64,000 nt of DNA from Saprospiraceae bacterium (GTDB lineage Bacteria; Bacteroidota; Bacteroidia; Chitinophagales; Saprospiraceae). The position numbers and the translations under genes were made by a program. The notes under the pieces are model-generated. The model was not told the origin of the DNA. It ran no database searches and worked only from the letters and a program-made list of their open reading frames with translations. Of the stretch, positions 13,927 to 57,589 are shown in pieces. Where the stretch lies: contig JALWRC010000095.1 in the NCBI GenBank assembly GCA_027080725.1, forward strand, positions 7,415 through 71,414, given 5' to 3'. How positions within the stretch are numbered: position 1 is the stretch's first letter; the number at the start of each line of letters is the position of its first letter.

Positions 13927-15159
13927 ATGAGTTTGGTAGAAACCTTTTCGGAATTCAGGACGAATAAAAGCATTGATCGACCGACGATGATTCGCGTGAT
14001 GAAAGACGTTTTTAGAAGTTTGATAAAGAAGCGTTTTGGTACAGATGAAAATTTTGATATCATCGTCAACAACAATGGAGACCTCGAGATCTGGCGGGTA
14101 CGTAAAATTGTACCGGATGGTGAGGTGACCGATACGCAGACAGAAATATCCCTCTCCGAAGCGCAAACCATTGAAGAGGACTACGAGATTGGAGAGGATT
14201 CGTATGAATATATGGACTTCCGGATGTTTGGAAGGAGATCCATTCAGGCTGCTCGGCAGACACTTATCGCCAGAATATTGGAAATAGAAAAGGAAGAAGT
14301 CCAGAAACAATACTCTTCTCGGGTTGGGGATATGATTATTGGAGAGGTAAATCAGATCCTCAAGCATGAAATGTTGGTCATAGACGATGCTACCGGCAAT
14401 GAGTTGGTTTTGCCGCGCTCTGAGATGATTCGCGGGGACTTTTTTAAGAAAGGCGATATGATAAGAGCCGTTATCTTGAAGGTCGAAGTGCGCAACAATA
14501 ACCCCGCTGTCGTCTTGTCAAGGACGAGTGAGCTCTTTTTGGAACGATTACTCGAACAAGAGGTCCCTGAGATTGAAGACGGGTTAATCACTATCAAAAA
14601 GATTGTCCGTATGCCCGGTGACCGCGCCAAAGTAGCTGTCGAATCTTACGACGATCGCATTGACCCGGTCGGTGCTTGTGTGGGGATGAAAGGCTCCCGT
14701 ATCCATGGTATCGTTCGAGAGTTGAAAAACGAGAATATCGATATTATTAATTACACCACGAATGATATTCTCTTTATCCAAAGAGCATTGACTCCGGCTA
14801 AGGTGACGAGTATCGATCTGAACGAAGAAGAAAAAAGAGCCTCTGTTTACCTCCAACCGGATCAAGTATCTCTTGCTATCGGCCGGGGTGGCTCCAATAT
14901 CAAACTGGCCAGTCGATTGACAGGGTATGAAATTGATGTATACAGAGATAGCGATGAATTGGAGATGGATGATGTGGATTTGGATGAATTTTCAGATGAA
15001 ATTGATGAGTGGGTCATTGACCAACTCAAGTCCATTGGCTGTGATACCGCCAAAAGTGTTTTGGAATTAAGTAAAGATGAGCTTATTCGTCGTACTGATC
15101 TGGAAGAAGAAACAGTAGATGAAATTCTCAAAATTTTAGCAGATGAATTCGAAGAGTAA
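13927..15159 (+). CDS. nusA: Transcription termination/antitermination factor NusA
   Basis: It has S1 and KH domains (GACVGMKGSRI, GRGGSNIKLA), a C-terminal acidic tail and conserved operon context. Confidence 0.95.
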   Translation: MSLVETFSEFRTNKSIDRPTMIRVMKDVFRSLIKKRFGTDENFDIIVNNNGDLEIWRVRKIVPDGEVTDTQTEISLSEAQTIEEDYEIGEDSYEYMDFRMFGRRSIQAARQTLIARILEIEKEEVQKQYSSRVGDMIIGEVNQILKHEMLVIDDATGNELVLPRSEMIRGDFFKKGDMIRAVILKVEVRNNNPAVVLSRTSELFLERLLEQEVPEIEDGLITIKKIVRMPGDRAKVAVESYDDRIDPVGACVGMKGSRIHGIVRELKNENIDIINYTTNDILFIQRALTPAKVTSIDLNEEEKRASVYLQPDQVSLAIGRGGSNIKLASRLTGYEIDVYRDSDELEMDDVDLDEFSDEIDEWVIDQLKSIGCDTAKSVLELSKDELIRRTDLEEETVDEILKILADEFEE

Positions 15160-15216
15160 ACGAGATGTGATTTTGGTCCGCTCTTTGATTCATATATAAT
15201 AGAAATTAGTATTTTA

Positions 15217-18018
15217 ATGGCAGTCAAAAGATTAGTTAAAGTCGCCAAAGAACTTAATGTAGGTACCTCTACTATTATTGATTTTCTTACTCAGGCCGGG
15301 TATGAAATAGAGGATAAGCCTACGTCGAAAGTTTCGGACGAGATGTATGAAGTACTTCTCAAAGAGTTTCAAGGTTCGGTGGAGATCAAAGAAAGAGCAG
15401 AGCAGTTGACGATTGGCTCAAAGCCGGGAGAAGACGACTCTCCTGCTAAACCGCCTAAGAAGAATTTGTTTGCTCCAAAAACCCACCTTCTTGATCCGTT
15501 GCCTGATCTGAAGAAGACTGCTCCTAAGAAAGAGACACCGGTATCTCTTGACCCCAAAGCGGAAGAAGCCCCAACACCAAAGAAGGAAGAGGAAAAACCC
15601 GTTGATGTATCGGATAAAGAAGCACCTGCTCCTTCGTCTGATACCGAAGCTCCAAAACTCAAGGTTCTGGGAAATATTGACCTCTCAAAGACCGGGCGTA
15701 AACCGAAAAAGGACAAAGCGGAAAAGGCACCAAGCGAAGATCATAAAGATAATATAGAGGAAAATATAACCGCCCCACCTCAAAAAGAGCCGAAACCCGA
15801 AGAAGTGGCTAAAGCCCCTAAAAAGGATGTGGAGGAAAAAGTAGAAACTCCAAAGAAGGATGAAATCATCCGGGTTGAGGCTCCAACCCTTAAAGGGTTG
15901 ACAACTAAAGGAAAAGTGAGCCTCGAGACATTAAAGCGAACGTCCAGACCGGATAAGAAAAACGATGCTTCTGCTCAGGAAAAGAAAAAGCGAAAGAGAA
16001 AACGAAGGAAAATTACGGCAGATGATATCTCTGCAATAGGCAAAGGGCGAAAACGAAAAGGCGGTACCCCACCTAAACAGGAAATTGATCAGCAAGAGAT
16101 TGAAAAGAAGATCAAACAGATTCAAGTAAAGCTGAGTGGAGGAGTCGATAAATCTGGCAAGAGAAGAAAACGCAAACTAAAGAAAGAGAAAAGGGAAGCT
16201 AAAGAAGAGATTTTGGCTCAACAGGCAGAAGTGGAGGCCAAGACCCTCCAAGTAACGGAGTTTATTACCGCGAATGACTTGGCTGCCTTGATGGATGAAA
16301 GCGCCGTGAGTATTATCCAGAAGTGTTTCGAACTTGGGATGATGGTATCGATAAACCAAAGACTCGATGCGGAGATTATTGAGTTGATAGCAGATGAGTT
16401 TGGGTTTGATGTCGAATTCCAGACCGTAGAGGAGTCGTTTGATGATGAAGATGAAATCGTCGATGACCCGGCAGATCTCGTTCCTCGTGCCCCTATCGTA
16501 ACGGTTATGGGACACGTCGATCATGGTAAGACCTCTCTGCTGGACTTTATTCGAAAAGAAAATGTGGTCTCCGGTGAAGCCGGTGGAATCACACAGCATA
16601 TTGGTGCCTATGAAGCCGTGGTCGAAAGGGATGGGCAGAAAAGTAAAGTAACTTTCCTCGATACCCCCGGTCACGAAGCCTTTACCGCAATGCGGGCCCG
16701 TGGTGCCAAAATTACAGATGTCGCTATTATTATTATTGCGGCGGATGATAAGATTATGCCCCAAACCAAAGAGGCGATCAGCCACGCTCAGGCTGCCGGC
16801 GTCCCCATGGTTTTTGCCATTAATAAAATCGACAAACCGGGCGCCGATCCGGAAAGGATAAAACAAGAGCTGGCTGCTATGGACTTGCTCGTAGAAGAAT
16901 GGGGTGGCAAGTACCAGTCTCAGGATATCTCCGCAAAAAATGGAACAGGTATCGACGAACTCCTCGAGAAAGTGTTGCTCGAAGCCGAAATGCTCGAGCT
17001 GAAAGCCAATCCTAATCGACCTGCCGTCGGGGTTGTTATCGAAGCATCCCTCGATAAAGGACGGGGTTATGTTACCAATATCCTTGTCCAAAACGGAACC
17101 CTGCGTGTCGGTGATGTGGTATTGGCAGGAGCGCATTGGGGCAAAGTCAGGGCAATGCACAATGAAAAAGGACAACGCGTCAAAGAGGCAGGACCTTCGA
17201 CCCCCGTCCTGATGCTCGGAATGCAAGGAGCTCCCCAAGCTGGAGAACACCTTAAAGTCGTCGAAAGCGAGAAGGAAGTCAAGCGAATGGCCGCTAAGAG
17301 ACTCCAAATACAACGGGAACTCTCCGAGCGAACCATGAAACGTATTAGCCTGGATGAAATCGGAAGAAGATTGGCACTCGGCAATTTTAAAGAGCTCAAT
17401 ATTATCGTCAAAGGAGATGTCGATGGTTCTGTAGAAGCCCTCTCAGATTCGTTGATTAAATTGACCAATGAGGAAGTTAGCGTGAATGTTATACACAAAG
17501 CAGTCGGACAAATTACCGAATCCGATGTCCTCCTCGCCTCCGCGTCGGATGCCATCATCATTGGTTTTCAAGTCCGTCCTTCTCTCGAAGCTCGTAAAAT
17601 GGCAGAAACAGAAGGCGTACAGATTAAGACCTACAATGTCATCTACCAAGCCATCGATGAAGTCAAACAGGCCATCGAAGGTATGCTCGAGCCTACTAAA
17701 GAAGAAAAAGTTAAGGCCAATGTGGAAGTTCGTGAAGTCTTCAAAGTAAGTAAAGTAGGTACCGTCGCCGGATGCTATGTCAGAGACGGAGTCATCAATA
17801 GAAATAGCCTCATTCGGGTCGTGCGAAATGGTATTCTAATCTTCCCTACAAAAGAAAAGCAGGTCGGCGAACTGGCCTCCCTGAAACGCTTTAAGGATGA
17901 TGTCAAAGAAGTCAAACAGGGCTTGGAGTGCGGTATCGCTATCAAAAATTTTAATGATATAAAAGTAGGGGATGAGATTGAAGCCTATGAAATTATTGAA
18001 TTGAAAAGAACGATATAG
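15217..18018 (+). CDS. infB: Translation initiation factor IF-2
   Basis: It has an IF2_N start, a K/E/P-rich linker, a GTPase domain ([28 protein letters not shown]) and C-terminal IF2 domains. Confidence 0.95.
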
Positions 18019-18044
18019 TTTCAAATTCATAAAATGCAAAAATT

Positions 18045-18419
18045 ATGGATGATATGACAGTTAATCGCTATTCCGATGTAGAGTTGGAAGAATTTAAAAA
18101 AATAGTTACCGACAAGCTCGCTAAGGCTCGGGAGCAGTTGGATTATTACCTCAACCAATTGAAGGCTATGAACGATAGCGAAGACGCCAAACTCAAAGGC
18201 CTCGACGACGGAACAACCGCTCAGGAATTGGAACGCATCTCCACGTATGCCCTCAGACAGCGAAAGTTGATCGAACACCTAGAAAAAGCATTAGTGCGCA
18301 TCCATAATAAGTCTTACGGTGTATGTCGTGTGACAGGAAAACTTATATCCAAAGAACGGCTTAAGGCAGTTCCGCACGCCACCCTGAGCATCGAGGCTAA
18401 AAACAATATGTCCCGTTGA
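18045..18419 (+). CDS. DksA/TraR-family C4-type zinc-finger protein
   Basis: A coiled-coil N terminus followed by a C-terminal zinc-finger-like YGVCRVTGKLISKERLKAVPHA. It lies directly upstream of lspA, as in many Bacteroidota. Confidence 0.75.
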   Translation: MDDMTVNRYSDVELEEFKKIVTDKLAKAREQLDYYLNQLKAMNDSEDAKLKGLDDGTTAQELERISTYALRQRKLIEHLEKALVRIHNKSYGVCRVTGKLISKERLKAVPHATLSIEAKNNMSR

Positions 18420-19123
18420 ACACTATAAATACTTTCCCCGCTGACAGTACTTACTCCAGGAGGCGTGTAGCCTTTATCGTTACCGCTGTAGTGATGCTGA
18501 TACTTGTCCTCGACCAATGGCTTAAAATATGGATTAAGACGCATATGGAGGTCGGTCAAGAGTTTTCCCTTTTGGGCCAATCTTGGATGCGCATCCACTT
18601 TGTCGAAAATGAAGGTATGGCGTATGGGCTATCACTCGGTGGCAAGACCGGTAAGCTCATATTGACCCTCTTCAGGTTTGGAGCGATCGGCTTCTTAATC
18701 TATCTCATGCGTAAGATGATTAGAGAAGGCTATGCTGTCGGCTTGCTCATTTTCTTTGCCATGATCATTGGCGGAGCCATAGGCAATCTGTTGGACAGTA
18801 TCTTTTATGGGGTCATCTTCGATGATCCGGGATACCACGGGGGCGTGGCAAAACTCTTTCCCCCGGAGGGAGGCTATGGCAAGCTCTTATATGGACGAGT
18901 GGTGGATATGCTATACTTCCCCATCCTCGATTTCCATTGGCCGGATTGGATGCCTATCGTGGGGGGACAGCGCTTCGAATTCTTTCGCCCGGTGTTCAAC
19001 CTCGCTGATTCATGCATCACCACCGGTATCCTCGGCATCCTGCTCTTCTACCGAAAACACTTTTTTGGCATGTCTAAAAAAGAAATCAGTAAGACTTCCC
19101 CCGCACCTTCTTCTCCGGAATAA
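18416..19123 (+). CDS. lspA: Lipoprotein signal peptidase II
   Basis: Motifs FVENEGMAYG, NLLDSIFYG, VVDMLYFP and FNLADSCI. The TTG start overlaps the dksA-like stop, so the exact start is uncertain. Confidence 0.85.
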   Translation: MNTINTFPADSTYSRRRVAFIVTAVVMLILVLDQWLKIWIKTHMEVGQEFSLLGQSWMRIHFVENEGMAYGLSLGGKTGKLILTLFRFGAIGFLIYLMRKMIREGYAVGLLIFFAMIIGGAIGNLLDSIFYGVIFDDPGYHGGVAKLFPPEGGYGKLLYGRVVDMLYFPILDFHWPDWMPIVGGQRFEFFRPVFNLADSCITTGILGILLFYRKHFFGMSKKEISKTSPAPSSPE

Positions 19124-19401
19124 TACCCCCGTATTCTTTGTATGGGGCAGAATTTATACCCACGGACTACTTGGCTTCCCGTACTTATATGCGTCATATG
19201 GTATGAAATGGTTGAATTGGCGTTATGGGATATTTGATAAGGTGCCGCCAATATGGCAGTGCTTATGGAGTTGTTTTTATTGATACATGTCATATTGACG
19301 CCTTTCGAGCGCCGAATTTGCACATTTTGGGGGTTGGTACACGGATTGATAAGGGTAAGGTGTAGCAAATTTTAAACACAAACCATTAAAACCATAGAAT
19401 T

Positions 19402-19833
19402 ATGACACTAGTAAGATTTAGAAGACCGATGCCAAATCCTGTTGACTTTACAGAGATTTTTAATGACTTTTTTAACCAAGCCGTTTCCAATATTCCCACC
19501 CGCGCATTCCAAAATGCAGTCAATGTGTGGGAAGATGAAAAGAAAATTGTTTTGGAAGTCGCCCTTCCGGGCATCGACAAAAAAGATGTCGATATCCAAC
19601 TCAATGAAGACCTGTTAGAGATAAAAGTGGTAAAGGAAGAGACCAAAGAAGAGTCTCAAGACAATTACCTCAGAAAAGAGTTTGACTTTACCGCTTTCGA
19701 AAGAACCTTCCATCTTCCGGATACAGTTGATCCTAAGAAGATCGAAGCAAAGTTTGATAATGGTGTTTTGCACATCACTATGCAAAAGAAAGAAGAAGTA
19801 ATTATCGAGCCTAAGAAGATCAAGGTCAAGTAA
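19402..19833 (+). CDS. Hsp20/alpha-crystallin small heat-shock protein
   Basis: Alpha-crystallin domain (VNVWEDEKKIVLEVALPGIDKKDVDIQL...FERTFHLPD...NGVLHI). Confidence 0.9.
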   Translation: MTLVRFRRPMPNPVDFTEIFNDFFNQAVSNIPTRAFQNAVNVWEDEKKIVLEVALPGIDKKDVDIQLNEDLLEIKVVKEETKEESQDNYLRKEFDFTAFERTFHLPDTVDPKKIEAKFDNGVLHITMQKKEEVIIEPKKIKVK

Positions 19834-19864
19834 CAAAGGAGTTAGGACAATTGTCCCAAAAAAT

Positions 19865-19895
19865 GCCGGTACCTCTCAGTGTGCCGGCTTTTTTT
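19865..19895 (+). terminator. Intrinsic terminator after hsp20
   Basis: GCCGGTAC/GTGCCGGC stem followed by T7. Confidence 0.7.
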
Positions 19896-20038
19896 GTGTC
19901 TATTCATCTTTGCCAAATGGGTTTTCTGTAGATTTCTCAATTTTCGAGATAAAAAAATGCATCCCTCTCAAATTTTGAGAAAAATAGACCGCTATCCCCT
20001 CCTACCTTTGTATTATGAAAATTACACAATGAACACCC

Positions 20039-20215
20039 TATGTGTATTTAGTGTTTGCCAGAAAACTATCAAATTTTATGAAATGAGGGATTTTGGATGA
20101 GTTTTTTCGTTTTTCGAGACGAAGTGATGCCTGGGCATCAGTGAATTGAGAAAAATAAAAAGATCGCCAAAAGATACATTTCTAATTTTGAAGAGTTTTC
20201 TTGCATACACTATTT
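20039..20215 (+). repeat. 177-bp dispersed repeat, copy 1
   Basis: About 91 percent identical (15 mismatches by my alignment) to 41479-41655, in the same orientation and with sharp boundaries. Confidence 0.85.
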
Positions 20216-20268
20216 ATCAGACGAACCATTTTTTTCGGGCTGATACACTATGAGAAAGAGGCTTCCCC

Positions 20269-20970
20269 CTAAGGAGCCTCTTTGCTTTTTTGTCTTCTTC
20301 CCTCATATACCTTAAGGACTTCTTCTTTTTTCTTTCGCCGGATATTGGGTACCTGGACCCCCGGAGCGGGATATCCGACAGGCAACAGTAAGAAGGCGCG
20401 TTCGTTGTCAGGCCGCTCCAGGATTTTCTCTAAGAATCGCATCGGACTTGGGGTATGCGTCAAGGTGACCAACCCGGCTTGATGAATGGTAGAAATCAGA
20501 AAACCGGTAGCAATCCCTACCGACTCATTGACGTAATAATTCTTTTTCTTTTTGCCATTTACCCAATCAAATGGCTTTTTGAAAACCACAATGAGATACG
20601 GGGCAACCTCCAGAAATGGCTTCTGCCAATTGGTGCCAAAGGGCTCGAGATCCTCCAACCACTCCTCGCTCATTCGTGTTTCGTAACTCAACCGCTCTTC
20701 TTCCTCAGCCGCCTTTCGTATTTGCCTTTTGATGGCAGGGGCGCTGACGACACAAAAAGTCCAGGGTTGCTTATTGGCGCCCGAAGGGGCGGAGGCTGCG
20801 GTCATCACGATGTTTTCGATGATTTCAAATGGAACATCTTCAGCGGAAAAACTGCGGATGGATCGCCTCTTTCGCATCGTTTCCAGTAATTGACGACTAC
20901 GATCCATTCGGGTCGAATCATCGAGTTCTATTGGAGTGTAAGGGATAAACCTGTTGGTATCTGTAGGCAT
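20269..20970 (-). CDS. Nitroreductase-superfamily flavoprotein, iodotyrosine deiodinase (IYD)-like
   Basis: RRSIRSF...SAPSGANKQPW nitroreductase core. The segment RMSEEWLEDLEPFGTNWQKPFLEVAPYLIVVFKK...LLLPVGYP aligns closely with my recollection of animal IYD. Confidence 0.8.
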   Translation of the reverse strand: MPTDTNRFIPYTPIELDDSTRMDRSRQLLETMRKRRSIRSFSAEDVPFEIIENIVMTAASAPSGANKQPWTFCVVSAPAIKRQIRKAAEEEERLSYETRMSEEWLEDLEPFGTNWQKPFLEVAPYLIVVFKKPFDWVNGKKKKNYYVNESVGIATGFLISTIHQAGLVTLTHTPSPMRFLEKILERPDNERAFLLLPVGYPAPGVQVPNIRRKKKEEVLKVYEGRRQKSKEAP

Positions 20971-21094
20971 GCGCTAATTTTTATTATGAAGAATAACATA
21001 TCTCTTTTGCATGTTGTTCCTGCTGATGCGGTCCAAAGGAAACAGCACCCCTGAACAATCCGTGCTTTTTTCCATGAAGCGTGTTTCAGGAGCA

Positions 21095-23872
21095 CTATTT
21101 GATATGCAAGAGCTGAACGCCCTCAAAACGGAATTTCGGAGGATGCATTTTGTCCTTTTGTTCCCACACGAGCCCCTGCCAGGTATTGTCGCAACCATTG
21201 GTGAGGATGACATTCTGCAGGATGAGTTGGGCATCATCTTCGAGGATAATGCGGCCATTGGCCGGGAGACTCACCGTCACGGGCGCTTCTTTTGTTCCGG
21301 ATATCTGTAGGACATGCCCGGACGGAATCCGGATATCCCGGTCCAATCCCCGCGATTGGGTCCATGTTTCTTTAAGGCCAATGGTCCGGGCGACGGAACC
21401 GAGGTCTTCGGGAGAGGCCGCCAATGCCCCTTCCCAAATGCCCCTTCCGAAAGTCGCGGCGCGCAATTTGTTCATGCAGTAATTGATACGCAATTCGGTT
21501 ACCCGGACATTGGGGAAGTCGCACATATGTTTCCAACGGGACATCCCTTTGTCTTTGAAGTAAATGCCGGCATCGGTTCCGATGTAAAGCATATCCTCCG
21601 TACCGTTCTGGTAGACGATGTCGTTGACGGGTAGATTGGAGAGGGAACCCTCCGGGTCGGCATTCGTCCAGTGGTCCCCTCCGTCCTCCGTCTTCCAAAC
21701 CTTTATGCCGGGCTCATAACCCGTGAAGGTGATCCAGGCTTTTAGTGGATTTTCCGGGTCAAATACCACCGATGTCAATGCAGGAATCTCCAGGCTATCC
21801 CCTCGAAAGACCCTCGGCAGATAGTGCCGGTTGATGATACCACTGGCTTTGAGGCGCCCGGTGAGGTCCTTAAAGCAGGTGTCCTTCCGGTACCCATCGA
21901 TTCCGTCACACCCTCCTGTCGTGCTTAGGAAAAGATGGGATTGGACGACATACCCCTTCTTAAAGTCCTTCTGATATCCGTTGACGATGAGGTAGATGTA
22001 GTCGGGGTCAGAAGCGCAGATGTCGTATTCCGTCATTTGGCGCTTCCACCGGGCAGGGATGTATTTGCCGATATCCGAGCGCAGTACCCAAAGGCTATCC
22101 GCCGTATCGTTGCGCTTGGCCGGTCGATGCACTTTGCGTTCGTAAAGCTCGGTCATCGGTATCCAAACCCTGTCCGTGACCGGGTGGTTCTTCATTTGAA
22201 AGGACTTGATGAGGGGCAGTTTGCCGGTGGCCGGATCCCGGGGCAAAAGGCGCTTTATCCATTCGTTCTTCTGCCTTTTTGATATGAAATCGTAGGTCAT
22301 CAGGCGGTTGGACGAACCACTTCCCGCCCCAAATCCCAATCCACCTACCCAATCCACCTTGCCATTGTATCCGTCGCCTCCCTCGAACGTCGTCCACACT
22401 TTGCCGATGAGGACATCCGTGCCGTTGTCTTGGTTGCCGGTGATGATGTGATCCGGCCGGTCTGCCGCATCCCCAAACCGATGAATGGTCTTCACCTGCA
22501 ATCCCTCCGAGTCAAATTGCCATCCGGATGAACCGGCTCGGCTTACGGGTTTTTTGCTGATACCTCCATCCGTACCGGCATAAAGCGTCTTGCCATCCGG
22601 AGAAAAAACGAGGGTGTGCACATCGGCATGGTAGCCATTGCCGGAGTAGGATGAATATCCGCGAATATGGTGCATGTCTCCTCCGTACACCTTTGTGGTG
22701 CCGAAGAACAGGGTGTCGGCATTGCGGGGTGAAATCCCTATTGCTGTCCGTGTCGGGGTGGCCAACTCGAATGCACTGTAGGTCGTCGAATGGCGCAAAT
22801 GGTGCCATTTCATACCATCAAAATAGTAAATGTAATATTCCGGATGCCCGGAGTGCCCCACGATGTAGGCATACAATCGCTCCGGAGCGGCAGGGGTGAC
22901 CCCGATATTAATCCGGTCCACCTCAAATCCTTCGGACAAGGAGTCCAGCATTAGTCCGGTGCCGGGACCGGTCATACTCTGCCAATGCGCTCCCCCGTCC
23001 GTAGAGCGATAAATGTCCAAGCCGCTGGCGTAAAGCGTGTCGGGATGGGTCGGATGTAGCTCCAATCCCTTGAGTTGGCGATCCCGCTCGATGGTCGTGC
23101 CGGTAGCGGATATTTTTCTCCATTGGGGGAACGGTGCCTCGCGATCCGGACAGTAAAATATCCCCTCGCTGCTCACGATCCACATGCCCGGCGAACGCGG
23201 CGAAAGACGCACCTTACGAATCGCCCCTCCCTCCCGGAAGAACCCCAACAATGCCTCCTCCCGGCCATTTGCCGATTGCCAGTGAAGCCCACCGTCCCGG
23301 CTGCGAAAGACTCCGGCGGTGAAAATCGGGGTAAACTGACTCGAACTCCCGTCATCTGTGTTTTCTGCGTGGTGATTGGGGTTGTTTTCTCCATCCCCGG
23401 TCGTGACGAAAAGGGTGTTTTTATTCGCCGGGTCAATGGCCACATCCGATATCGAACTGTAAGGGAGTTGCCCTTGGCCGATGACATGCCATGCATGCCT
23501 CCCCTGTCGCTTCCAGAGGCCGCCGAAATTGCTGCCGGCATACATGACACTGTCGGTCTCATAATCGGGGCTGAAGGCGATGACGTGGATTTGCCCTTGC
23601 CCCTTGGAGGAGGTATAGCCCCCGGGGATGCCGGTCGGACCCAGACAATGCCATTGGGAATGATAGCAACCCGAATCCGCTCCGCCTAAGAAGGATATAG
23701 CGTAGCGCGTAATGTCCGGATCCGGTGGAAGCGTGTCGGTCCTGTTCTTATGGTATGAAATGGCACCATGTCCGGTGACGGCCAAATATCCGGCCCGGTC
23801 TCGTGACATGCTTATCCCGGACACCGCCCACATCCAAAATAATCCGAAAAACAGTAGGATAGTTCTTTGCAT
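21095..23872 (-). CDS. Secreted BNR/Asp-box repeat beta-propeller protein (sortilin/VPS10-like or glycosidase-like)
   Basis: Signal peptide MQRTILLFFGLFWMWAVSG. Repeated Asp-boxes SRDGGLHWQ, STDGGAHWQ and TEDGGDHW. Confidence 0.6.
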   Translation of the reverse strand: MQRTILLFFGLFWMWAVSGISMSRDRAGYLAVTGHGAISYHKNRTDTLPPDPDITRYAISFLGGADSGCYHSQWHCLGPTGIPGGYTSSKGQGQIHVIAFSPDYETDSVMYAGSNFGGLWKRQGRHAWHVIGQGQLPYSSISDVAIDPANKNTLFVTTGDGENNPNHHAENTDDGSSSQFTPIFTAGVFRSRDGGLHWQSANGREEALLGFFREGGAIRKVRLSPRSPGMWIVSSEGIFYCPDREAPFPQWRKISATGTTIERDRQLKGLELHPTHPDTLYASGLDIYRSTDGGAHWQSMTGPGTGLMLDSLSEGFEVDRINIGVTPAAPERLYAYIVGHSGHPEYYIYYFDGMKWHHLRHSTTYSAFELATPTRTAIGISPRNADTLFFGTTKVYGGDMHHIRGYSSYSGNGYHADVHTLVFSPDGKTLYAGTDGGISKKPVSRAGSSGWQFDSEGLQVKTIHRFGDAADRPDHIITGNQDNGTDVLIGKVWTTFEGGDGYNGKVDWVGGLGFGAGSGSSNRLMTYDFISKRQKNEWIKRLLPRDPATGKLPLIKSFQMKNHPVTDRVWIPMTELYERKVHRPAKRNDTADSLWVLRSDIGKYIPARWKRQMTEYDICASDPDYIYLIVNGYQKDFKKGYVVQSHLFLSTTGGCDGIDGYRKDTCFKDLTGRLKASGIINRHYLPRVFRGDSLEIPALTSVVFDPENPLKAWITFTGYEPGIKVWKTEDGGDHWTNADPEGSLSNLPVNDIVYQNGTEDMLYIGTDAGIYFKDKGMSRWKHMCDFPNVRVTELRINYCMNKLRAATFGRGIWEGALAASPEDLGSVARTIGLKETWTQSRGLDRDIRIPSGHVLQISGTKEAPVTVSLPANGRIILEDDAQLILQNVILTNGCDNTWQGLVWEQKDKMHPPKFRFEGVQLLHIK

Positions 23873-23947
23873 ATATAGTCTGATTTATTTCATTGGACCG
23901 GCTGGGTCTATCGATAATGATTGGCAGCACCTCGCGACCGCACACGA

Positions 23948-23955
23948 CAAAAATA
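23948..23955 (-). promoter_or_regulatory. -7 promoter box TAttTTTG (minus strand) for the BNR gene
   Basis: Matches TAnnTTTG and lies 76 bp upstream of ATG 23872. Confidence 0.45.
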
Positions 23956-23996
23956 CGATATCTTTACGGGAATGAGCTTTTGGGACGGAAAAAGGT

Positions 23997-24014
23997 GTGT
24001 ATTACAAAGTGCGC
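23997..24014 (-). promoter_or_regulatory. Copy of the 18-nt motif (GCGCACTTTGTAATACAC on the minus strand)
   Basis: Lies 41 bp upstream of the -7 box at 23948-23955. It is the inverted partner of the copy at 24743-24764. Confidence 0.5.
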
Positions 24015-24110
24015 TTTTTAGAGTATATTCAAAATTCAATCGCTTCAAAAGGAGAAGAATCCAGACACACGTTTTTATGTGGCTAAAGCCAATCTTTTCT
24101 AACTTTTAGA

Positions 24111-24190
24111 CCGTTCGCTGAAGCGAACGGCAAAAGCTGAAGCGAACGGCAAAGGGCTGAAGCGAACGGCAAAAGCTGAAGCAAATGAAA
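24111..24190. repeat. Tandem repeat, 19-20 bp unit GCTGAAGCGAACGGCAAAr, about 3.5 copies
   Basis: Read directly. The first unit completes the hairpin CCGTTCGC-tgaa-GCGAACGG. A single-unit version is at 52276-52310. Confidence 0.85.
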
Positions 24191-24234
24191 TAGGAACATT
24201 GCCCATGCTACATTCTTAAAAAATGCCCATAACT

Positions 24235-24564
24235 AGTGCTCCGCGCAGAAAATAACTATACACATAAACTTGCTCTTTCCCTCTGACTCTTCGTTGCTCA
24301 AACAGTCATTATACTACGGCATAACTCCCGTTTGAGCGTCTCGTGCCCCACGCAAGAAATAAGTAGATATAATAGGCGAAGTTATTTTTTATTTAGACGA
24401 GGCGAAGGTTCTCTTGAATAGCCTTAGCTATTTACGAGGTTCTTCAACGAAGTATAAATATAAAAGGACGAGCATAGATGTTTAGTTATTTTTTGCGTGG
24501 GGCACTACATTCAGAGAAAAATAGCTTCAGTTGCTATGTATATTTATTTCTTGCGCAGAGCACT
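24235..24564. repeat. Four copies of a 21-23 nt unit rGTGCyCyrCGCAAGAAATAA, arranged forward, forward, reverse, reverse (nested inverted repeats)
   Basis: Units at 24235-24257, 24342-24364, 24484-24506 and 24544-24564. The outer pair matches 18/21 and the inner pair 20/23. Confidence 0.8.
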
Positions 24565-24742
24565 GGAGCGTTTTATAATAAACATCATTGCCGTCAGTTT
24601 CAACTGACGGAAAAAGGAATGAAGAGAAATCGGCTTTAGCCTCATCAAACATATACGCGAGTGTATTCGTCCATTCGTGGCCATCAAATAAAAGCATTCG
24701 GGCAATGGTGGCTGTTAGCTTTGTAAGAGGAGTATTGAATTA

Positions 24743-24764
24743 GTGCAGTTTGTAGTACACACAC
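24743..24764 (+). repeat. Orphan copy of the 18-nt motif (GTGCAGTTTGTAGTACACACAC)
   Basis: No -7 box or gene lies downstream. It is the inverted partner of 23997-24014 (768-bp span). Confidence 0.5.
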
Positions 24765-25257
24765 GGAAAAAGGGTGCATAACAAAAGACACCAACACCAT
24801 CAAAACAAAAGAACCGCCCTGCTCGTGGCGACATATCGTCGCACAACGCACAAAAGTGGAGGTTTTAAACCTATGGTTTGCGGTGATTTTAGAAGTATGG
24901 TATTAGCCCTCTGCGTCAGAAAGATATAAGTATAGCAACCGAGGCTCTTGCCGTCCGGATCAAAGTGCCTAAACGGGAGCAAACATAGCCCACGGTTTTA
25001 ACCGTGGGTATGGGATACGAGACAATCCTTGGCAATGGTTTTAATCATTTTATCGAGCTTCATTTTTTGGAATGGACTCAAAAGTCAAAAAAAGAGCAAG
25101 GAAACATTTAGAGTAGTTTTTTTATAGTACCACTCGCTTAGCTTTGTTTCTCGTCATCGCTTTATACTATTGTTAGAATATTCATTGATGCAATCCTCAA
25201 GCCTAATTGTGATGGTTCTATTTACTTTAGAACATTTGTTTTGTTATGAAGGGCGAT

Positions 25258-25292
25258 TATATCAGAGGCTTCCGGATGAAGCCTCTGATATA
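25258..25292 (-). terminator. Perfect 15-bp hairpin just 3' of the lipoprotein gene (no clear U-run)
   Basis: TATATCAGAGGCTTC-cggat-GAAGCCTCTGATATA, 10 bp past the stop codon. Confidence 0.45.
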
Positions 25293-25301
25293 AATGCTCT
25301 G

Positions 25302-25967
25302 CTATGGCGAAAAATTTAAAAACACATCCAGATTTCCCTTTACATTTATGGTATCACGTCTGTCTTTTGTAATAAGAATTCCATTAATGTTGCCTTCTAA
25401 CCGTAGAACATGATAGTCCAACATGCAAATGCTTCCAAATTCTTCAAATTTACTGAACGTATAATTTTCGAATTTCAGCCCTGTTTCATCACGACTAATA
25501 TCAACAGGTAAACTTACAAGATTTCCATTCCACCAGTTTTGGTATATCTTCCCATCCTTTTTTAATTTTAGGAAAAAATCCCATTTATAAGGAGGGGAAT
25601 TGAATTCATACATTTGAGAATGAATATATGACCAGAACTCGTTTAAATAGGGTGATCCTTTGCCACTGGCAGGTACATCGTGGAAAACAAATCGAAAATA
25701 GAAGTCATCAGGCAAATTGGCAGGATCATAAGGATAAAATACCCCCGGACTAGAAACGAGGAGTCTCGGGACATCTCCGATACTTTCACTAGGGGTAGGA
25801 GCAAATTTGCCACACGAAGTATACGATGTGTCGAACAGCACTTCATTATCAGCAGAAATGAATATCTGTGATTTTGGGATTTCCAGTTCGTTCATAGGAC
25901 CCGGTTCCGGCTTTTTGCAGCATCCTAAGACTATTAAGAAAGCGAAAAGAAAGAGTGTTTTTGCCAT
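25302..25967 (-). CDS. Hypothetical lipoprotein, low GC
   Basis: Lipobox LIVLGC in MAKTLFLFAFLIVLGCCKK. I recognise no family. G+C is about one-third, against about one-half in flanking genes. Confidence 0.55.
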   Translation of the reverse strand: MAKTLFLFAFLIVLGCCKKPEPGPMNELEIPKSQIFISADNEVLFDTSYTSCGKFAPTPSESIGDVPRLLVSSPGVFYPYDPANLPDDFYFRFVFHDVPASGKGSPYLNEFWSYIHSQMYEFNSPPYKWDFFLKLKKDGKIYQNWWNGNLVSLPVDISRDETGLKFENYTFSKFEEFGSICMLDYHVLRLEGNINGILITKDRRDTINVKGNLDVFLNFSP

Positions 25968-26117
25968 GATATGATGATTTTCTATTTATTAATAAAGGAG
26001 AATAATTCCAGTGCTCCAGTTGTTCCTGCGCGATAAATCATTTAGTAAATCTCCGCTCCCAAGTCTTCCTTCGTCAGCTTTGGGGTTGGAGTTCTTCACG
26101 CTGTTTGTCTTAGATTA

Positions 26118-26135
26118 GTGCACTTTGCAATACCC
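26118..26135 (+). promoter_or_regulatory. Copy of the 18-nt motif (GTGCACTTTGCAATACC), followed by a C8 and (CA)4 tract
   Basis: Ends 42 bp upstream of the dctQ -7 box. Confidence 0.5.
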
Positions 26136-26177
26136 CCCCCACACACACCACATCCCTCCCATTACATAATTTCTGTA

Positions 26178-26185
26178 TATATTTG
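26178..26185 (+). promoter_or_regulatory. -7 promoter box TAtaTTTG for dctQM
   Basis: Matches TAnnTTTG and lies 41 bp upstream of ATG 26226. Confidence 0.5.
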
Positions 26186-26225
26186 TCGGGTTGTTTGTTC
26201 AAGTGTATGTTATTAATCAAAAGGG

Positions 26226-26717
26226 ATGAATCGATTGCAGCAGTTCAATGAGCGAATCGGCCGGTGGGTTTCGTGGCTCAATTTGGTCTTGATACTTTTG
26301 ATATGTTTTGATGTACTGTTTCGCTACGCATTTCATACCACCCACGCATGGATAATGGAGTTGGAATGGCAGCTATTTGCACTGATTTTTCTTCTCGGAG
26401 GGGCCTTTACTCTTGCCCGTGATAAACATGTGCGTGTTGACGTGTTTTATATACGACTGCCTGCAAAAGCGAAGGCTATCATAAACATAGCAGGTTATCT
26501 CTTATTGTTAACTCCATGGTGTTTGTTGATGATTTATACCGGTGGGAAGTATGCCCATCACGCCTTTGAGACGATGGAGGGGAGCCCCAATCCGGGCGGA
26601 TTGCCTTATTATTTTATTATAAAATCCATGATTGTATTTGGTTTTGCCTTGTTGTTGATACAAGGGATTGTGGAGATGATTTTAGAATTTAAGAAACTTC
26701 AGCATTGGAATACATAG
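26226..26717 (+). CDS. dctQ: TRAP transporter small permease (DctQ family)
   Basis: A 163-aa protein with four hydrophobic helices. It overlaps and precedes a DctM-type gene. Confidence 0.75.
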   Translation: MNRLQQFNERIGRWVSWLNLVLILLICFDVLFRYAFHTTHAWIMELEWQLFALIFLLGGAFTLARDKHVRVDVFYIRLPAKAKAIINIAGYLLLLTPWCLLMIYTGGKYAHHAFETMEGSPNPGGLPYYFIIKSMIVFGFALLLIQGIVEMILEFKKLQHWNT

Positions 26718-28060
26718 CACTCATACTATTCGGGGCGATATTAATCGTGTTACTGACCGGATTTCCGGTGGCATTTGTCCTCGGCGGGATGGCGGTGTTG
26801 GTGGGGTATTTTCAGCTCGGACCGGAGTTCTTTGCCTTTTTGCCCTCCAGGGTTATGGGCGTGATGAGCAATTATGTACTGATTGCCGTGCCCCTGTTTA
26901 TCTTTATGGGCATCACCATGCAGCGAACAGGCATCGCTGAGTCCCTTCTGATCTCCATGTCAAGGGTGTTTAGTCGAATAAAGGGCGGAATGGCGGTCTC
27001 CGTGATTGTTGTCGGTGCTTTGATGGCGGCCTCTACGGGAATTGTCGGGGCGACGGTGGTGACCATGGGGACGATAAGCTTGCCCATCATGTTGCGTTAT
27101 GGGTACAAGCCCTCCCTCGCGAGTGGGGTAGTGGCCTCTGCCGGGACGCTCGGACAAATCATCCCTCCATCGATTGTGTTGGTCTTGCTGGGGAGTGTGT
27201 TCAATATTTCCGTTGGTGACTTGTTTGGGGCTGCCGTGATTCCTGGGGTGTTATTGGTGTTGATGTATTTGGTTTATACCGTAGTCATTACACAGTTTAC
27301 TAAGGGAGCAATGGATACGAATAGCGCAAAATTAGAGATGATTAAGAGCGCGGGAGAAGAGGGCAGCCGGCAAAGTATAACACTTCTACTTAAAACCTTA
27401 GTAATACCTCTGACCCTGATAGTGGTCGTATTGGGGTCGATATTTGCCGGCATAGCCTCTCCCACGGAGGCCGCTGCTATCGGTGCTGCCGGCGCACTTT
27501 TGATCGGGGTGAGTCAAGGCAAGCTGGATTGGACCACTTTGAAGGACATCTCTGTCGAGACCACACACATGACGAGTATGGTGTTTTTTATTTTGCTTGG
27601 GGCGACGACCTTTACCTTGGTATTTCGCGGGCTGAATGGTGATATTTTTTTGATTGATTTCTTTACCGAAGGAGGATTTACCCCGTGGGGGTTCCTTGGG
27701 TTTGTGATGTTGGTGGTCTTTGTAGCCGGCTTTTTTATAGATTTTATCGAGATCATCTTTATATTGGTGCCCGTCATCCTTCCGATACTAAAGACGTATA
27801 ATCCATCCGATTTTTCTCCTGTATTTCATACCATGCCACAGCTTCTGCTTTGGTTTGCTTTGTTGCTGGCGCTCAATCTACAGACCTCCTTTTTGACACC
27901 TCCCTTTGGCTTCTCGCTGTTTTATCTCAAGGGAGTGGCACCCCCCGAAGTGCAAACCAAGGATATATACAGGGGAATTGTGCCTTTTATATTAATCCAA
28001 CTCGCATTAATCTTGTTGGTGATGTTCTACCCGCAAGTCATCACCTATGTGGTGAACTGA
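26705..28060 (+). CDS. dctM: TRAP transporter large permease (DctM family)
   Basis: A 451-aa polytopic protein with typical DctM sequence (GFPVAFVLGG..., LGQIIPPSI, PPFGFSLFYLKG). Confidence 0.85.
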   Translation: MEYIALILFGAILIVLLTGFPVAFVLGGMAVLVGYFQLGPEFFAFLPSRVMGVMSNYVLIAVPLFIFMGITMQRTGIAESLLISMSRVFSRIKGGMAVSVIVVGALMAASTGIVGATVVTMGTISLPIMLRYGYKPSLASGVVASAGTLGQIIPPSIVLVLLGSVFNISVGDLFGAAVIPGVLLVLMYLVYTVVITQFTKGAMDTNSAKLEMIKSAGEEGSRQSITLLLKTLVIPLTLIVVVLGSIFAGIASPTEAAAIGAAGALLIGVSQGKLDWTTLKDISVETTHMTSMVFFILLGATTFTLVFRGLNGDIFLIDFFTEGGFTPWGFLGFVMLVVFVAGFFIDFIEIIFILVPVILPILKTYNPSDFSPVFHTMPQLLLWFALLLALNLQTSFLTPPFGFSLFYLKGVAPPEVQTKDIYRGIVPFILIQLALILLVMFYPQVITYVVN

Positions 28061-41478: not shown

Positions 41479-41655
41479 ATGTGTATTTAGTGCTTGCCAG
41501 AAAACTGTCAAATTTCATAAAATGAAAGATTTTGGATGAGCTTTTTCATTTTTCGAGACGAAGTGATGCCGGGGTATCAGTGAGTTGAGAAGAATATAAA
41601 GATCGCCAAAAGATACATTTCTAATTTTGAAGAGTTTTCTTGCAAGCACTATTTA
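41479..41655 (+). repeat. 177-bp dispersed repeat, copy 2
   Basis: See copy 1 at 20039-20215. Confidence 0.85.
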
Positions 41656-57130: not shown

Positions 57131-57148
57131 GTGTATTACAAAGTGCAC
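57131..57148 (-). promoter_or_regulatory. Copy of the 18-nt motif (GTGCACTTTGTAATACAC on the minus strand)
   Basis: Lies 29 bp upstream of the -7 box at 57094-57101. It is the inverted partner of 57590-57609. Confidence 0.5.
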
Positions 57149-57165
57149 TTTATTATAACCTCATA

Positions 57166-57545
57166 TCGCCACGGTGGCACAGGCTCCCCCCATCCCTACC
57201 GCCACAAAGGCACAGGCTCTACTCCTTCATAAACTGTGACGCCTCGGCGTTATATCAATCTGTACATCGTGTATATATTTATGATGAAGGAGAGGGGGGG
57301 CTTATGTTTCTCTAACTGTAGGGAATTTCATTAGGGTAATACTCAGCTAAATATAGAGTGTATCCCTACCGCCACGGCGGCACAGGCTCTCCTTTGGCTA
57401 AGTATTTACTATATTACTTGATGTATTTCAAAGGAGAAGAGCCTGTGCCGCTTTAGCGGTAGGTTAGGGGATGAGGTTGTTTAGACGGGATTCGGGATTT
57501 AGAGGGTGTATTCTCTCTTCCTATACCGCCACGGCGGCACAGGTT
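57166..57545. repeat. REP-like cluster: five copies of (CC)TACCGCCACGGCGGCACAGGCTC
   Basis: Copies at 57166-57187 (+), 57195-57220 (+), 57364-57390 (+), 57438-57470 (-) and 57523-57545 (+). Copies 3 and 4 form a long inverted repeat. Confidence 0.8.
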
Positions 57546-57589
57546 ATGCTAATTGAAACCTATGACACCAAGGCGTACAAGACGTAATA

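What the first reader, a model, noticed from the sequence alone, without database searches (positions are those of the whole stretch)
23873..25301. A 1.4-kb ORF-free island packed with tandem repeats, nested inverted repeats and hairpin modules
No ORF of 60 aa or more with any recognisable character lies between the BNR gene and the low-GC lipoprotein gene. Instead the island contains:
- A 19-20 bp tandem repeat (GCTGAAGCGAACGGCAAAr, about 3.5 copies) at 24111-24190.
- Four copies of a 21-23 nt unit rGTGCyCyrCGCAAGAAATAA, ordered forward, forward, reverse, reverse, at 24235, 24342, 24484 and 24544. They can form two nested stems (18/21 and 20/23 matches) enclosing further short repeats such as GGCGAAG and ACGAGG..GGTTCTTC. 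A split fifth copy lies at 26010-26040.
- Perfect small hairpins: CCGTTCGC-tgaa-GCGAACGG (24111), CCGTCAGTT-tca-ACTGACGG (24591), CCCACGGTT-tt-AACCGTGGG (24989), and GGCTAAAGCC / GGCTTTAGCC (24081, 24632).

Most of this lies between the inverted 18-nt motif pair. The density and nesting suggest either successive insertions of miniature elements into one hotspot or a large structured non-coding RNA locus.
Basis: seen in the sequence. Interest (0 to 1): 0.62.

Follow-up and report, generated by a model that had tools for sequence, protein, structure and literature searches.

The report
Nest of miniature transposable elements
The gene-free 1.4-kb stretch is a pile-up of small non-coding "jumping DNA" repeats (MITEs) inserted into one another, not one large RNA gene; it is ordinary in kind, though one repeat family is an old 162-base hairpin element spread widely through Saprospiraceae.

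Summary
Nearly all of the island (23991-25301) consists of dispersed repeats of this Saprospiraceae genome.

- **Outer element (FamC):** about 430 bp, with GTGTATTACAAAGTGCAC-type inverted ends. It carries the 19-bp tandem repeat and three of the listed hairpin or stem features.
- **Nested elements:** FamC is split by a 163-nt TA-flanked hairpin element (FamA), which is itself split by a related 163-nt element (FamB). Their four ends are the "forward, forward, reverse, reverse" 21-nt units.
- **Remainder:** a low-copy 720-bp duplication holding a roughly 70-nt double-hairpin repeat (FamE).
- **Negative results:** no Rfam family and no protein remnant.

A metagenome strain (98.5% identical overall) has the same nest with one tandem unit fewer. 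It loses synteny exactly at FamC's outer end.

FamA and FamB belong to one superfamily:
- at least 72 copies here;
- present in 88 of 151 sampled genera of the family, and sporadically elsewhere in Bacteroidota;
- 35 of 43 stem pairs show compensatory changes;
- one strand folds markedly better;
- flanks look like a CTAG-type target with TA duplication, as for IS630.

No autonomous partner was found.

Verdict: a MITE nest, a new member of a known kind.

The parts
23873..23993 (-). Unique upstream region of the BNR/sortilin-like gene (ATG at 23872 on the - strand), with a Bacteroidota-type -7 box TATTTTTG at 23948-23955 (-). Not repeated elsewhere.
   Evidence: Repeat depth is 0. The TANNTTTG scan finds the box. 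It is 95% identical in the related metagenome strain.
23994..24233 (+). FamC, left part. FamC is an approximately 430-bp MITE of superfamily S2. Its left terminal inverted repeat is GGTGTGTATTACAAAGTGCGC at 23994-24015. This part holds GGCTAAAGCC (24081) and the hairpin CCGTTCGC-tgaa-GCGAACGG (24111).
   Evidence: Alignment with copies on C101, C98, C67, C74 and C21. The terminal motif occurs 269 times in the genome.
24117..24182 (+). 19-nt tandem repeat GCTGAAGCGAACGGCAAAA, 3.4 copies: a minisatellite inside FamC.
   Evidence: TRF result. Other FamC copies have 1.4 units, or 2.4 on C74. The related strain has exactly one unit fewer at this same locus.
24234..24565 (-). FamA, an S1-superfamily 163-nt hairpin MITE (24236-24342 plus 24508-24563), interrupted by FamB. 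Ends are GTGCTCCGCGCAGAAAATAA / TTATTTCTTGCGCAGAGCAC. Flanking dinucleotides are TA (24234-24235) and TG (24564-24565). The better-folding 'sense' strand is the window's - strand.
   Evidence: 27 uninterrupted full-length copies. Empty FamC sites on C98 and C101 carry a single T(A/G). The composite copy on C7:29597-29927 is 95% identical. Strand test.
24343..24505 (+). FamB, an S1-superfamily 163-nt hairpin element nested in FamA in the opposite orientation. Ends are GTGCCCCACGCAAGAAATAA / TTATTTTTTGCGTGGGGCAC. Core is AGACGAGGCGAAGGTTC ... TAGCCTTAGCTA ... GGTTCTTCAACGAAG. The left junction is TC rather than TA (non-canonical).
   Evidence: Best hit of covariance model R1 in the window: 144 bits, E=1.5e-29. 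FamA copies lacking it are contiguous across 24343|24509. Fold energy is -71 kcal/mol.
24566..24762 (+). FamC, right part. It holds the hairpin CCGTCAGTT-tca-ACTGACGG (24591), GGCTTTAGCC (24632) and the right terminal inverted repeat AGTGCAGTTTGTAGTACACAC (24740-24762).
   Evidence: This part is only 82% identical in the related strain, whose copy resembles the C98 copy (95%). Synteny ends at 24762.
24790..25301 (.). Low-copy duplicated segment, which continues to 25510 into the 3' end of the lipoprotein gene. It includes the 23-nt-arm hairpin at 25250-25300 just after that gene's stop codon.
   Evidence: 93-95% identical to C79:1-718, which runs off the contig end. 24790-25050 is also found on C88. 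Inverted repeat I5.
24980..25049 (+). FamE: a dispersed double-hairpin module, AACATAGCCCACGGTTTTAACCGTGGG ... AATGGTTTTAA(C/T)CATT. It is REP-like.
   Evidence: 59 BLAST hits in the genome; alignment. It gives a weak sub-threshold Rfam hit only (Acido-Lenti-1, 22 bits against a gathering score of 37).
26012..26135 (+). FamF: a roughly 120-nt dispersed element upstream of the lipoprotein gene and dctQM. Its right end carries the S2 terminal motif and runs into the C8(CA)4 tract.
   Evidence: About 40 BLAST hits. S2 motif end at 26135.

Best explanation
The island is a nest of non-autonomous miniature transposable elements (MITEs) and other dispersed intergenic repeats. They accumulated between the BNR gene's promoter and the next gene.

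**Shown**
- A roughly 430-bp FamC element sits next to the BNR promoter. FamC has 20-bp inverted ends and an internal 19-nt minisatellite.
- A 163-nt TA-flanked hairpin element (FamA) is inserted into FamC.
- A related 163-nt element (FamB) is inserted into FamA in the opposite orientation.
- The composite has itself been copied elsewhere in the genome.
- The rest of the island is a low-copy duplication carrying a REP-like double hairpin (FamE).
- FamA and FamB belong to one superfamily (S1) of about 162-nt long-hairpin elements. S1 is common in Saprospiraceae.

**Inferred**
- S1 elements are mobilised in trans by an IS630/Tc1-mariner-type DDE transposase that targets CTAG-like sites and duplicates TA. 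No partner with matching ends is in this assembly.
- The elements are mainly selfish DNA.
- Their main consequences at this locus are a variable minisatellite and homologous-recombination breakpoints.
- The hairpin is kept by selection acting on one strand as a single-stranded molecule. That molecule is most simply RNA, as reported for ERIC and Correia elements.
For: **The island is a mosaic of repeats**
- Window 23991-25510 is covered by repeats of the same genome.
- Repeats with 5 or more copies make up 3.3% of the genome.

**Nesting is shown by empty sites**
- FamC copies on C98 and C101 run straight from 24232 to 24566 and carry a single T(A/G) at the site.
- More than 20 FamA copies run straight from 24343 to 24509.

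**FamA properties**
- There are 27 uninterrupted copies, 166-168 nt as extracted with their flanking T/A bases (163 nt from GTGC to GCAC), with 21-nt inverted ends.
- 23 end pairs lie at the 160-170 nt spacing, and none encloses a gene.

**Flanks of 52 S1 copies**
- C at position -3 in 42.
- TA at positions -2..-1 in 23.
- TA at positions +1..+2 in 35.
- G or A at position +3 in 41.
- This equals a CTAG/CTAA-like site with TA duplication, which is the IS630 habit (my own knowledge, Tenzen et al. 1990). The review gives RUP/IS630-Spn1 and TA.

**An IS630-family element in this genome**
- A DDE_3 IS630-family element lies at C53:1-1180. It is TA-flanked and begins with GTG.

**Superfamily evidence**
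- Covariance model R1, built from 20 elements of 18 genera, finds 72 copies here, including FamA on the opposite strand.
- R1 finds matches in 88 of 151 sampled genera of the family.
- It finds a few genomes in other families and classes of the phylum.

**Hairpin conservation**
- 35 of 43 pairs show compensatory changes.

**Strand asymmetry**
- The sense strand folds better in 20 of 20 seed elements (mean -67.7 against -50.0 kcal/mol) and in 27 of 27 FamA copies (-74.0 against -56.4).
- In a strand-neutral arm-against-arm alignment, G.T outnumbers A.C mismatches 137 to 55, and in 19 of 20 sequences.

**Related strain** (metagenome contig, 98.5% identical over 10 kb)
- It has the same FamC[FamA[FamB]] nest.
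- It has one 19-nt unit fewer.
- Its FamC right half is a different allele (82% identity).
- Synteny is lost exactly at FamC's outer end.

**Negative results**
- No Rfam family and no Pfam remnant.
Against: - No autonomous element with S1 or S2 ends was found, either in this draft genome or next to unpaired S1 ends in the near-complete genome G126.
- The resident IS630's ends (GTGTCAAGTCAAG...) share only the first bases with FamA's.
- The TA duplication rests on flank statistics and one paralogous empty-site comparison, in which the right copy reads TG.
- FamB's left junction is TC, not TA.
- Conserved interior with variable ends is the reverse of the usual MITE pattern.
- S1 orientation shows no bias relative to neighbouring genes: 14 co-directional against 16 anti-directional (crude ORF calls). 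This argues against a cis-acting mRNA role.
Confidence: 0.85

Rival explanations
1. S1 elements (FamA and FamB) are not merely selfish. Each would be, or would carry, a functional single-stranded structured module. That module could be a transcribed 162-nt hairpin RNA, or a folded DNA strand, with a conserved internal loop and apex that binds a protein or is processed. This is comparable to ERIC or Correia RNA hairpins that alter mRNA stability.
For: - 35 of 43 pairs covary across 18 genera.
- The sense strand folds better in 20 of 20 and 27 of 27 elements.
- G.T outnumbers A.C mismatches 137 to 55.
- The unpaired motifs AGGCG / CAACG and the apex GCCnnAGC are conserved, even in other classes of the phylum.
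- Length is held at 159-166 nt.
Against: - There is no orientation bias relative to flanking genes: 14 against 16.
- No -33/-7 promoter consensus was seen inside the element by eye, and the TANNTTTG scan shows none within 24236-24563.
- There is no expression data.
- Copies are freely interrupted by other elements, as FamA is here.
- Hairpin arms of palindromic DNA can co-evolve through repair or conversion without any RNA function.
Confidence: 0.25
2. S1 elements are moved by something other than an IS630-type DDE transposase. Candidates are a serine recombinase that uses TA as its crossover dinucleotide, or a single-strand (Y1/HUH, IS200/IS605- or RAYT-like) transposase acting on the folded sense strand.
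For: - No IS630 partner with matching ends was found.
- Strand-specific folding would suit a single-strand mechanism.
- The genome has one Y1_Tnp gene, at C17:90868-91272, about 175 nt from an S1 copy.
- An earlier scan note (e1-2077679) proposed a serine recombinase for other TA-flanked MITEs.
Against: - No large-serine-recombinase domain (PF07508) is present in this genome.
- The Y1 gene is an ordinary IS200-type TnpA with its own hairpins. The DNA between it and the S1 copy is unique, so the adjacency looks accidental.
- IS200/IS605 elements make no duplication, yet TA is found on both sides of most copies.
Confidence: 0.12
3. The island is one large structured non-coding RNA locus, or an invertible (phase-variable) promoter cassette bounded by the 21-nt inverted units.
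For: - The inverted repeats are dense and nested.
- Predicted folds are very stable.
- Bacteroidota are known for invertible promoters (my own knowledge).
Against: - Each module is an independent multi-copy repeat found in unrelated intergenic regions, in both orientations.
- No Rfam hit.
- The same-genus genome lacks the island.
- The related strain has the 24234-24565 segment in the same orientation at 100% identity.
- The right part of the island is not even syntenic between strains.
Confidence: 0.03
4. The island is the decayed remnant of a protein-coding gene.
For: It is an unusually long non-coding gap (1.4 kb) with many short ORFs.
Against: - None of 10 stop-to-stop frames has a Pfam match above noise.
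- 23991-25301 is accounted for by non-coding repeats.
Confidence: 0.01

Closest known systems
IS630-type TA-duplicating bacterial MITEs: RUP of Streptococcus pneumoniae, Correia/NEMIS of Neisseria, ERIC/IRU of enterobacteria (reviewed in PMC2229807)
   Same: - 100-170-nt, non-coding, intergenic, multi-copy.
- Inverted ends, 5'-TA-3' at the termini, TA target duplication.
- Transcripts predicted to form long stem-loops.
- Like ERIC, S1 is conserved across many genera and has no identified transposase.
- Like RUP, it inserts into other mobile elements.
   Different: - No sequence similarity.
- S1's interior core and apex are conserved while its ends differ between genera.
- Length is held at about 162 nt across a whole family, with outliers in other classes of Bacteroidota.
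- Effects on RNA, IHF sites and promoters, which are documented for Correia and ERIC, are untested here.
BrickBuilt MITE of Porphyromonas gingivalis, which contains a 23-nt minisatellite (PMC4596501)
   Same: FamC is a Bacteroidota MITE with small inverted ends. It carries an internal tandem repeat (19 nt) whose unit number differs between copies and between strains. It is always intergenic.
   Different: - Different sequence and unit length.
- FamC usually has only 1.4 units.
- Promoter activity, which was shown for BrickBuilt, is untested.
- FamC shares its ends with several other element lengths (about 230, 390, 457 and 513 nt).
REP / BIME / REPIN elements with RAYT transposases
   Same: FamE is a short (roughly 70-nt) dispersed module of two GC-rich hairpins. 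It occurs in many intergenic regions and often next to other repeats.
   Different: - No GTAG head.
- No RAYT flanked by FamE was found. The only Y1 gene is an IS200-type TnpA with different hairpins.
- S1 elements have TA flanks that look like a target duplication, which REPINs lack.

Membership tests
MITE (miniature inverted-repeat transposable element, generic) | Short (under about 500 bp) and without coding capacity | tested here: met
   FamA and FamB are 163 nt and FamC is about 430 nt. No ORF has a Pfam match.
MITE (generic) | Terminal inverted repeats | tested here: met
   FamA has 21-nt ends. FamB has 20-nt ends (I3). FamC has about 20-nt ends, a motif found 269 times in the genome.
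MITE (generic) | Many dispersed copies with sharp common boundaries | tested here: met
   120 BLAST hits and 27 full copies of FamA. 72 covariance-model hits for S1. 78 adjacent inward-facing pairs of the S2 end motif, about 68 of them less than 1 kb apart.
MITE (generic) | Filled and empty sites, with target-site duplication | tested here: met
   Paralogous empty sites exist for FamA in FamC (a single T(A/G) against TA...TG) and for FamB in FamA. No orthologous empty site between strains was seen, because the related strain has the same insertions.
IS630/Tc1-mariner-derived MITE | TA duplication at a CTAG-like target | tested here: met
   C at -3 in 42 of 52 copies, TA on the right in 35 of 52 and on the left in 23 of 52, G or A at +3 in 41 of 52. 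TA|GTGC...GCAC|TA in most other genera.
IS630/Tc1-mariner-derived MITE | Ends match those of a transposase-bearing IS630-family element in the same or a related genome | tested here: not met
   The only DDE_3 element (C53) has ends GTGTCAAGTCAAGTTTGG..., which share only GTG with FamA. They partly resemble the ends of one element from another genus, L102. No partner was found in G126.
Rfam RNA families (any) | Covariance-model match at or above the gathering score | tested here: not met
   cmscan of 23000-27000 on both strands at E up to 1 gave four sub-threshold chance-level hits and none in 24233-24564.
REP/REPIN-RAYT system (considered for FamE and S1) | Cognate RAYT (Y1 HUH) gene flanked by the repeats, and a GTAG-type head | tested here: not met
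   There is one Y1_Tnp gene, of IS200 type. It is not flanked by FamE, and the nearby S1 copy is separated from it by unique DNA. FamE and S1 have no GTAG head.
Invertible promoter (inverton) | Both orientations of the segment between the inverted repeats are present; a nearby invertase gene | tested here: inconclusive
   Only one orientation is seen, in the assembly and in the related strain. Read-level data are unavailable. No large-serine-recombinase domain (PF07508) was found in the genome; small serine and tyrosine invertases were not searched. The same 'cassette' occurs at 72 loci, which argues against this reading.

The most novel reading that the evidence does not exclude
The S1 elements would be an ancient superfamily of mobile elements, spread through Saprospiraceae and sporadically elsewhere in Bacteroidota, whose conserved part is not the transposase-binding ends. 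Instead it would be a strand-specific 162-nt folded module, comprising the internal loop AGGCG/CAACG, G.U-rich stems and the apex GCCnnAGC. That module would work as RNA or as folded single-stranded DNA, for example as the recognition structure for a still unidentified mobilising or processing protein. 'TIR plus TA' would then be a misleading resemblance to IS630 MITEs.
Probability: 0.2. Interest if true: 0.6.

Novelty: new member of a known kind. Interest (0 to 1): 0.35.

Why it matters
**For annotating this genome**
- It removes a candidate 'large ncRNA locus'.

**More generally**
- About 3% of this genome is miniature repeats. They nest, carry a variable minisatellite and mark a synteny breakpoint between strains that are 98.5% identical. 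They therefore drive micro-rearrangement and break assemblies in Saprospiraceae.
- The S1 superfamily now has a covariance model, was found in 88 of 151 sampled genera, and shows strong covariation and strand asymmetry. That makes it a tractable case for a long-standing question about ERIC-like elements: whether they persist through selection on a folded single strand or simply through transposition.

Tried and rejected
- **Rfam scan:** nothing credible.
- **Pfam scan of the ten longest stop-to-stop frames:** noise only.
- **Exact 22-mer of the FamA end in 185,579 species genomes:** no match. FamA's ends are therefore lineage-specific.
- **The look-up of encoding contigs for the BNR protein:** not on record.
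- **Search for an autonomous partner, all negative:**
  - S1 end pairs up to 5 kb apart;
  - the IS630 end motif elsewhere in the genome;
  - S2 end pairs of 0.9-6 kb, which enclose housekeeping genes only;
  - six unpaired S1 ends in G126, with no transposase beside them.
- **S1 core pattern in viral contigs:** none.
- **K-turn reading of the conserved GGCGAAGG loop:** considered by eye and rejected. The position after the bulge is G-G rather than G-A, and the alternative register breaks the GAAGG/CUUC helix.
- **Orientation bias of S1 relative to genes:** none, 14 against 16.
- **RNAalifold on FamA copies alone:** little covariation signal (covariation term -0.18), because the copies are 90% identical on average. 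My own structure gave 7 pairs with double changes against 3.9 expected, which is suggestive only.
Full report
**Observation**

- TRF reports a 19-nt unit, 3.4 copies, at 24117-24182.
- The four 20-21-nt units start at 24236 (+), 24343 (+), 24505 (-) and 24563 (-). They form nested inverted repeats.
- The small hairpins are all present.
- None of ten stop-to-stop frames has a Pfam match above noise.
- Rfam gives only four sub-threshold hits, none in the nested-repeat part.
- The island has 40.5% G+C against 44.9% for the genome.

**What the pieces are**

A search of the window's own genome (3.8 Mb, 110 contigs) shows that 23991-25510 is a mosaic of repeats found elsewhere in that genome. The organism is a member of Saprospiraceae: its NusA is 75% identical to Phaeodactylibacter and Lewinellaceae MAGs.

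I name the families as follows.

*FamC* (23994-24233 plus 24566-24762)
- It is a roughly 430-bp element with inverted ends GTGTGTATTACAAAGTGCRC.
- Copies on C101, C98, C67, C74 and C21 align end to end.
- All copies contain the CCGTTCGC-tgaa-GCGAACGG hairpin, the CCGTCAGTT-tca-ACTGACGG hairpin and the GGCTAAAGCC/GGCTTTAGCC pair. These 'hairpin modules' are therefore simply parts of FamC.
- The 19-nt unit is present 1.4 times in most copies, 2.4 times on C74 and 3.4 times here. It is a minisatellite inside a MITE, as in BrickBuilt of P. gingivalis.

*FamA* (24236-24342 plus 24508-24563)
- It is a 163-nt element with 21-nt inverted ends.
- Twenty-seven uninterrupted copies were extracted.
- FamC copies on C98 and C101 pass directly from 24232 to 24566 with a single T(A/G), whereas the window has TA...TG around FamA.

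*FamB* (24343-24505)
- It is a second 163-nt element with similar ends, lying inside FamA.
- More than 20 FamA copies are contiguous across 24343|24509.
- The FamA[FamB] composite recurs on C7 (95% identity), and partly on C70 and C80, so the nest itself has been copied.

*Remainder of the island*
- 24790-25510 is a low-copy duplication, 93-95% identical to C79:1-718 and running into the lipoprotein gene's 3' end.
- It contains FamE, a roughly 70-nt double-hairpin module with 59 hits.

*Just outside the island*
- FamF (26012-26135) has about 40 BLAST hits and FamG (20045-20216) about 60-70.

Repeats with five or more copies cover 3.3% of the genome.

**Two superfamilies**

FamC and FamF share a terminal motif, AGTGCAYTTTGTAATACAC. 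It occurs 269 times in the genome, with preferred end-to-end spacings of about 230, 390, 457 and 513 nt. I call this superfamily S2.

FamA and FamB belong to another superfamily, S1.
- BLAST with FamB found its interior, but not its ends, in 35 of 151 sampled genera of the family.
- In those genomes the elements are again 159-166 nt and mostly TA|GTGC...GCAC|TA. The arms are quite different in sequence from genus to genus.
- An alignment of 20 elements from 18 genera gives one long hairpin. Thirty-five of its 43 predicted pairs show compensatory double changes.
- The conserved parts are AGAC(R)AGGCGAAGGTTC, the apex TAGCCnnAGCTA, and GGTTCTTCAACGAAG.
- A covariance model built from this alignment (R1) gave these results:
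  - 72 copies in the window's genome, with FamA copies matching full length on the strand opposite to FamB's orientation;
  - matches in a few genomes of other families and another class of the phylum, with the same layout.
- FamG gives only weak R1 hits of 24 bits.

**Mechanism**

Flanks of 52 S1 copies in this genome are as follows:
- C at position -3 in 42;
- TA immediately left in 23;
- TA immediately right in 35;
- G or A at position +3 in 41.

This amounts to a CTAG/CTAA-like site with the central TA on both sides, which is the known habit of IS630 (my own knowledge). RUP of pneumococcus is attributed to IS630-Spn1 on the same grounds (PMC2229807). Because a filled site recreates C-TA-G at each end, this also explains the head-to-tail S1 pairs. 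It likewise fits the one IS630-family element in the assembly (DDE_3, C53:1-1180). That element's TA-flanked right end, which begins with GTG, abuts an S1-like end.

I therefore infer trans-mobilisation by an IS630-type transposase. The following points count against that inference:
- no partner with matching ends was found in this genome;
- none was found beside unpaired S1 ends in genome G126;
- FamB's own left junction is TC rather than TA.

A large serine recombinase was raised for other TA-flanked repeats by an earlier scan note. That domain is absent from this genome. The single Y1 transposase gene is an ordinary IS200-type TnpA whose nearness to one S1 copy looks accidental.

**A feature that is not typical of MITEs**

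In S1 the interior is conserved and the ends vary, and the hairpin is strand-specific.
- The 'sense' strand folds better in 20 of 20 seed elements (mean -67.7 against -50.0 kcal/mol). The alignment fold is -27.6 against -16.5.
- It also folds better in 27 of 27 FamA copies (-74.0 against -56.4).
- In a strand-neutral arm-against-arm alignment, G.T mismatches outnumber A.C by 137 to 55 (binomial p=3e-9). G.T exceeds A.C in 19 of 20 sequences.

This points to selection on one folded single strand. The simplest candidate is RNA, as reported for ERIC and Correia elements. However, S1 orientation is unbiased relative to flanking genes (14 co-directional against 16 anti, crude gene calls). No expression data could be obtained. 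I hold a function beyond selfish spread at about 20-25%.

**Comparison with relatives**

The same-genus genome G001 (65-75% protein identity) keeps the nitroreductase-BNR pair. It has no counterpart of the island or the lipoprotein gene beside BNR or dctQM.

A metagenome contig (Ga0256832_1000156) is 98.5% identical to window 14760-24762. Segment by segment:

| Segment | Identity |
|---|---|
| BNR gene | 98.2% |
| Unique promoter region | 95.0% |
| FamC-left | 100%, but one 19-nt unit fewer |
| FamA + FamB | 100% |
| FamC-right | 82% |

- In that strain FamC-right resembles the C98 copy (95%).
- Beyond FamC's outer end at 24762 the contig continues into tRNA-Cys, MarR-like and SDR genes. These correspond to C98:5604-6339 of this genome, not to the lipoprotein-dctQM region.
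- The nest is therefore older than the split between the two strains.
- The minisatellite varies between the strains.
- A recombination or rearrangement breakpoint lies within or at the end of FamC.

**Verdict**

The thing is a MITE nest, which is a known kind. Its families appear undescribed:
- no Rfam family matches;
- I found no paper on Saprospiraceae MITEs;
- bulk MITE censuses of Bacteroidota do exist;
- an earlier scan note already reported a roughly 163-nt MITE in another Saprospiraceae genome.

Interest is modest. The residual interest lies in the S1 superfamily's conserved, strand-specific fold.

Noticed in passing
window 20045-20216 and 41479-41655: FamG is a roughly 172-nt hairpin repeat with about 60-70 BLAST hits in the genome. 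It gives weak hits to the S1 model (24 bits), so it may be a distant relative. Four genomic copies (C7, C23, C43, C74) have a FamA element inserted at its apex (GATG|CC|TGGG).
   Followed up: partly
window 57131-57607; genome-wide: The S2 terminal motif AGTGCAYTTTGTAATACAC occurs 269 times in the genome, with several discrete element lengths (about 230, 390, 457 and 513 nt). Another complete pair lies in the window at 57131-57607. No autonomous partner was found.
   Followed up: partly
S2 ends normally continue ...ATACAC(AC), so the tract may be an expanded element terminus rather than a promoter spacer.
   Followed up: no
window 24790-25510 and G000:C79:1-718: The 3' 209 nt of the low-GC lipoprotein gene, together with 510 nt downstream of it, are duplicated at 93-95% identity at a contig end. 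A second (partial?) copy of this orphan gene therefore exists. The related metagenome strain does not have the gene at this locus.
   Followed up: partly
L135 (metagenome contig Ga0256832_1000156), compared with window 23994-24565: FamC-left, FamA and FamB are 100% identical between the two strains over about 570 nt, while the adjacent promoter region is 95% and the BNR gene 98.2% identical. This could be a recent conversion or transfer tract, or constraint. It is unexplained.
   Followed up: no
G000:C53:1-1180: This is the only IS630-family (DDE_3) element in the assembly. It is cut by the contig start. Its right end is GACAC|TA and abuts an S1-like end (GTGTGTCAGGAACAAAG) and a FamE hairpin.
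   Followed up: partly
G000:C17:90868-91272: A single IS200-type Y1 transposase gene lies at a contig end, about 175 nt from an S1 (FamA) copy at 90531-90692. The intervening DNA is unique and has its own hairpins.
   Followed up: partly
G000:C98:1-1360: This is a second MITE nest. It holds an empty FamC copy (116-509), followed by another S2 element (524-1359) that contains two S1 elements in opposite orientation (641-800 on the - strand, 825-985 on the + strand).
   Followed up: partly
L129 (G126:C6:70400-73400): Three kilobases next to an unpaired S1 end contain no ORF of 100 aa or more. This may be another repeat nest or an RNA locus in that genome.
   Followed up: no
In the same-genus genome G001, dctQ is preceded after only about 80 nt by a 283-aa ORF on the same strand as dctQM.
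   Followed up: no
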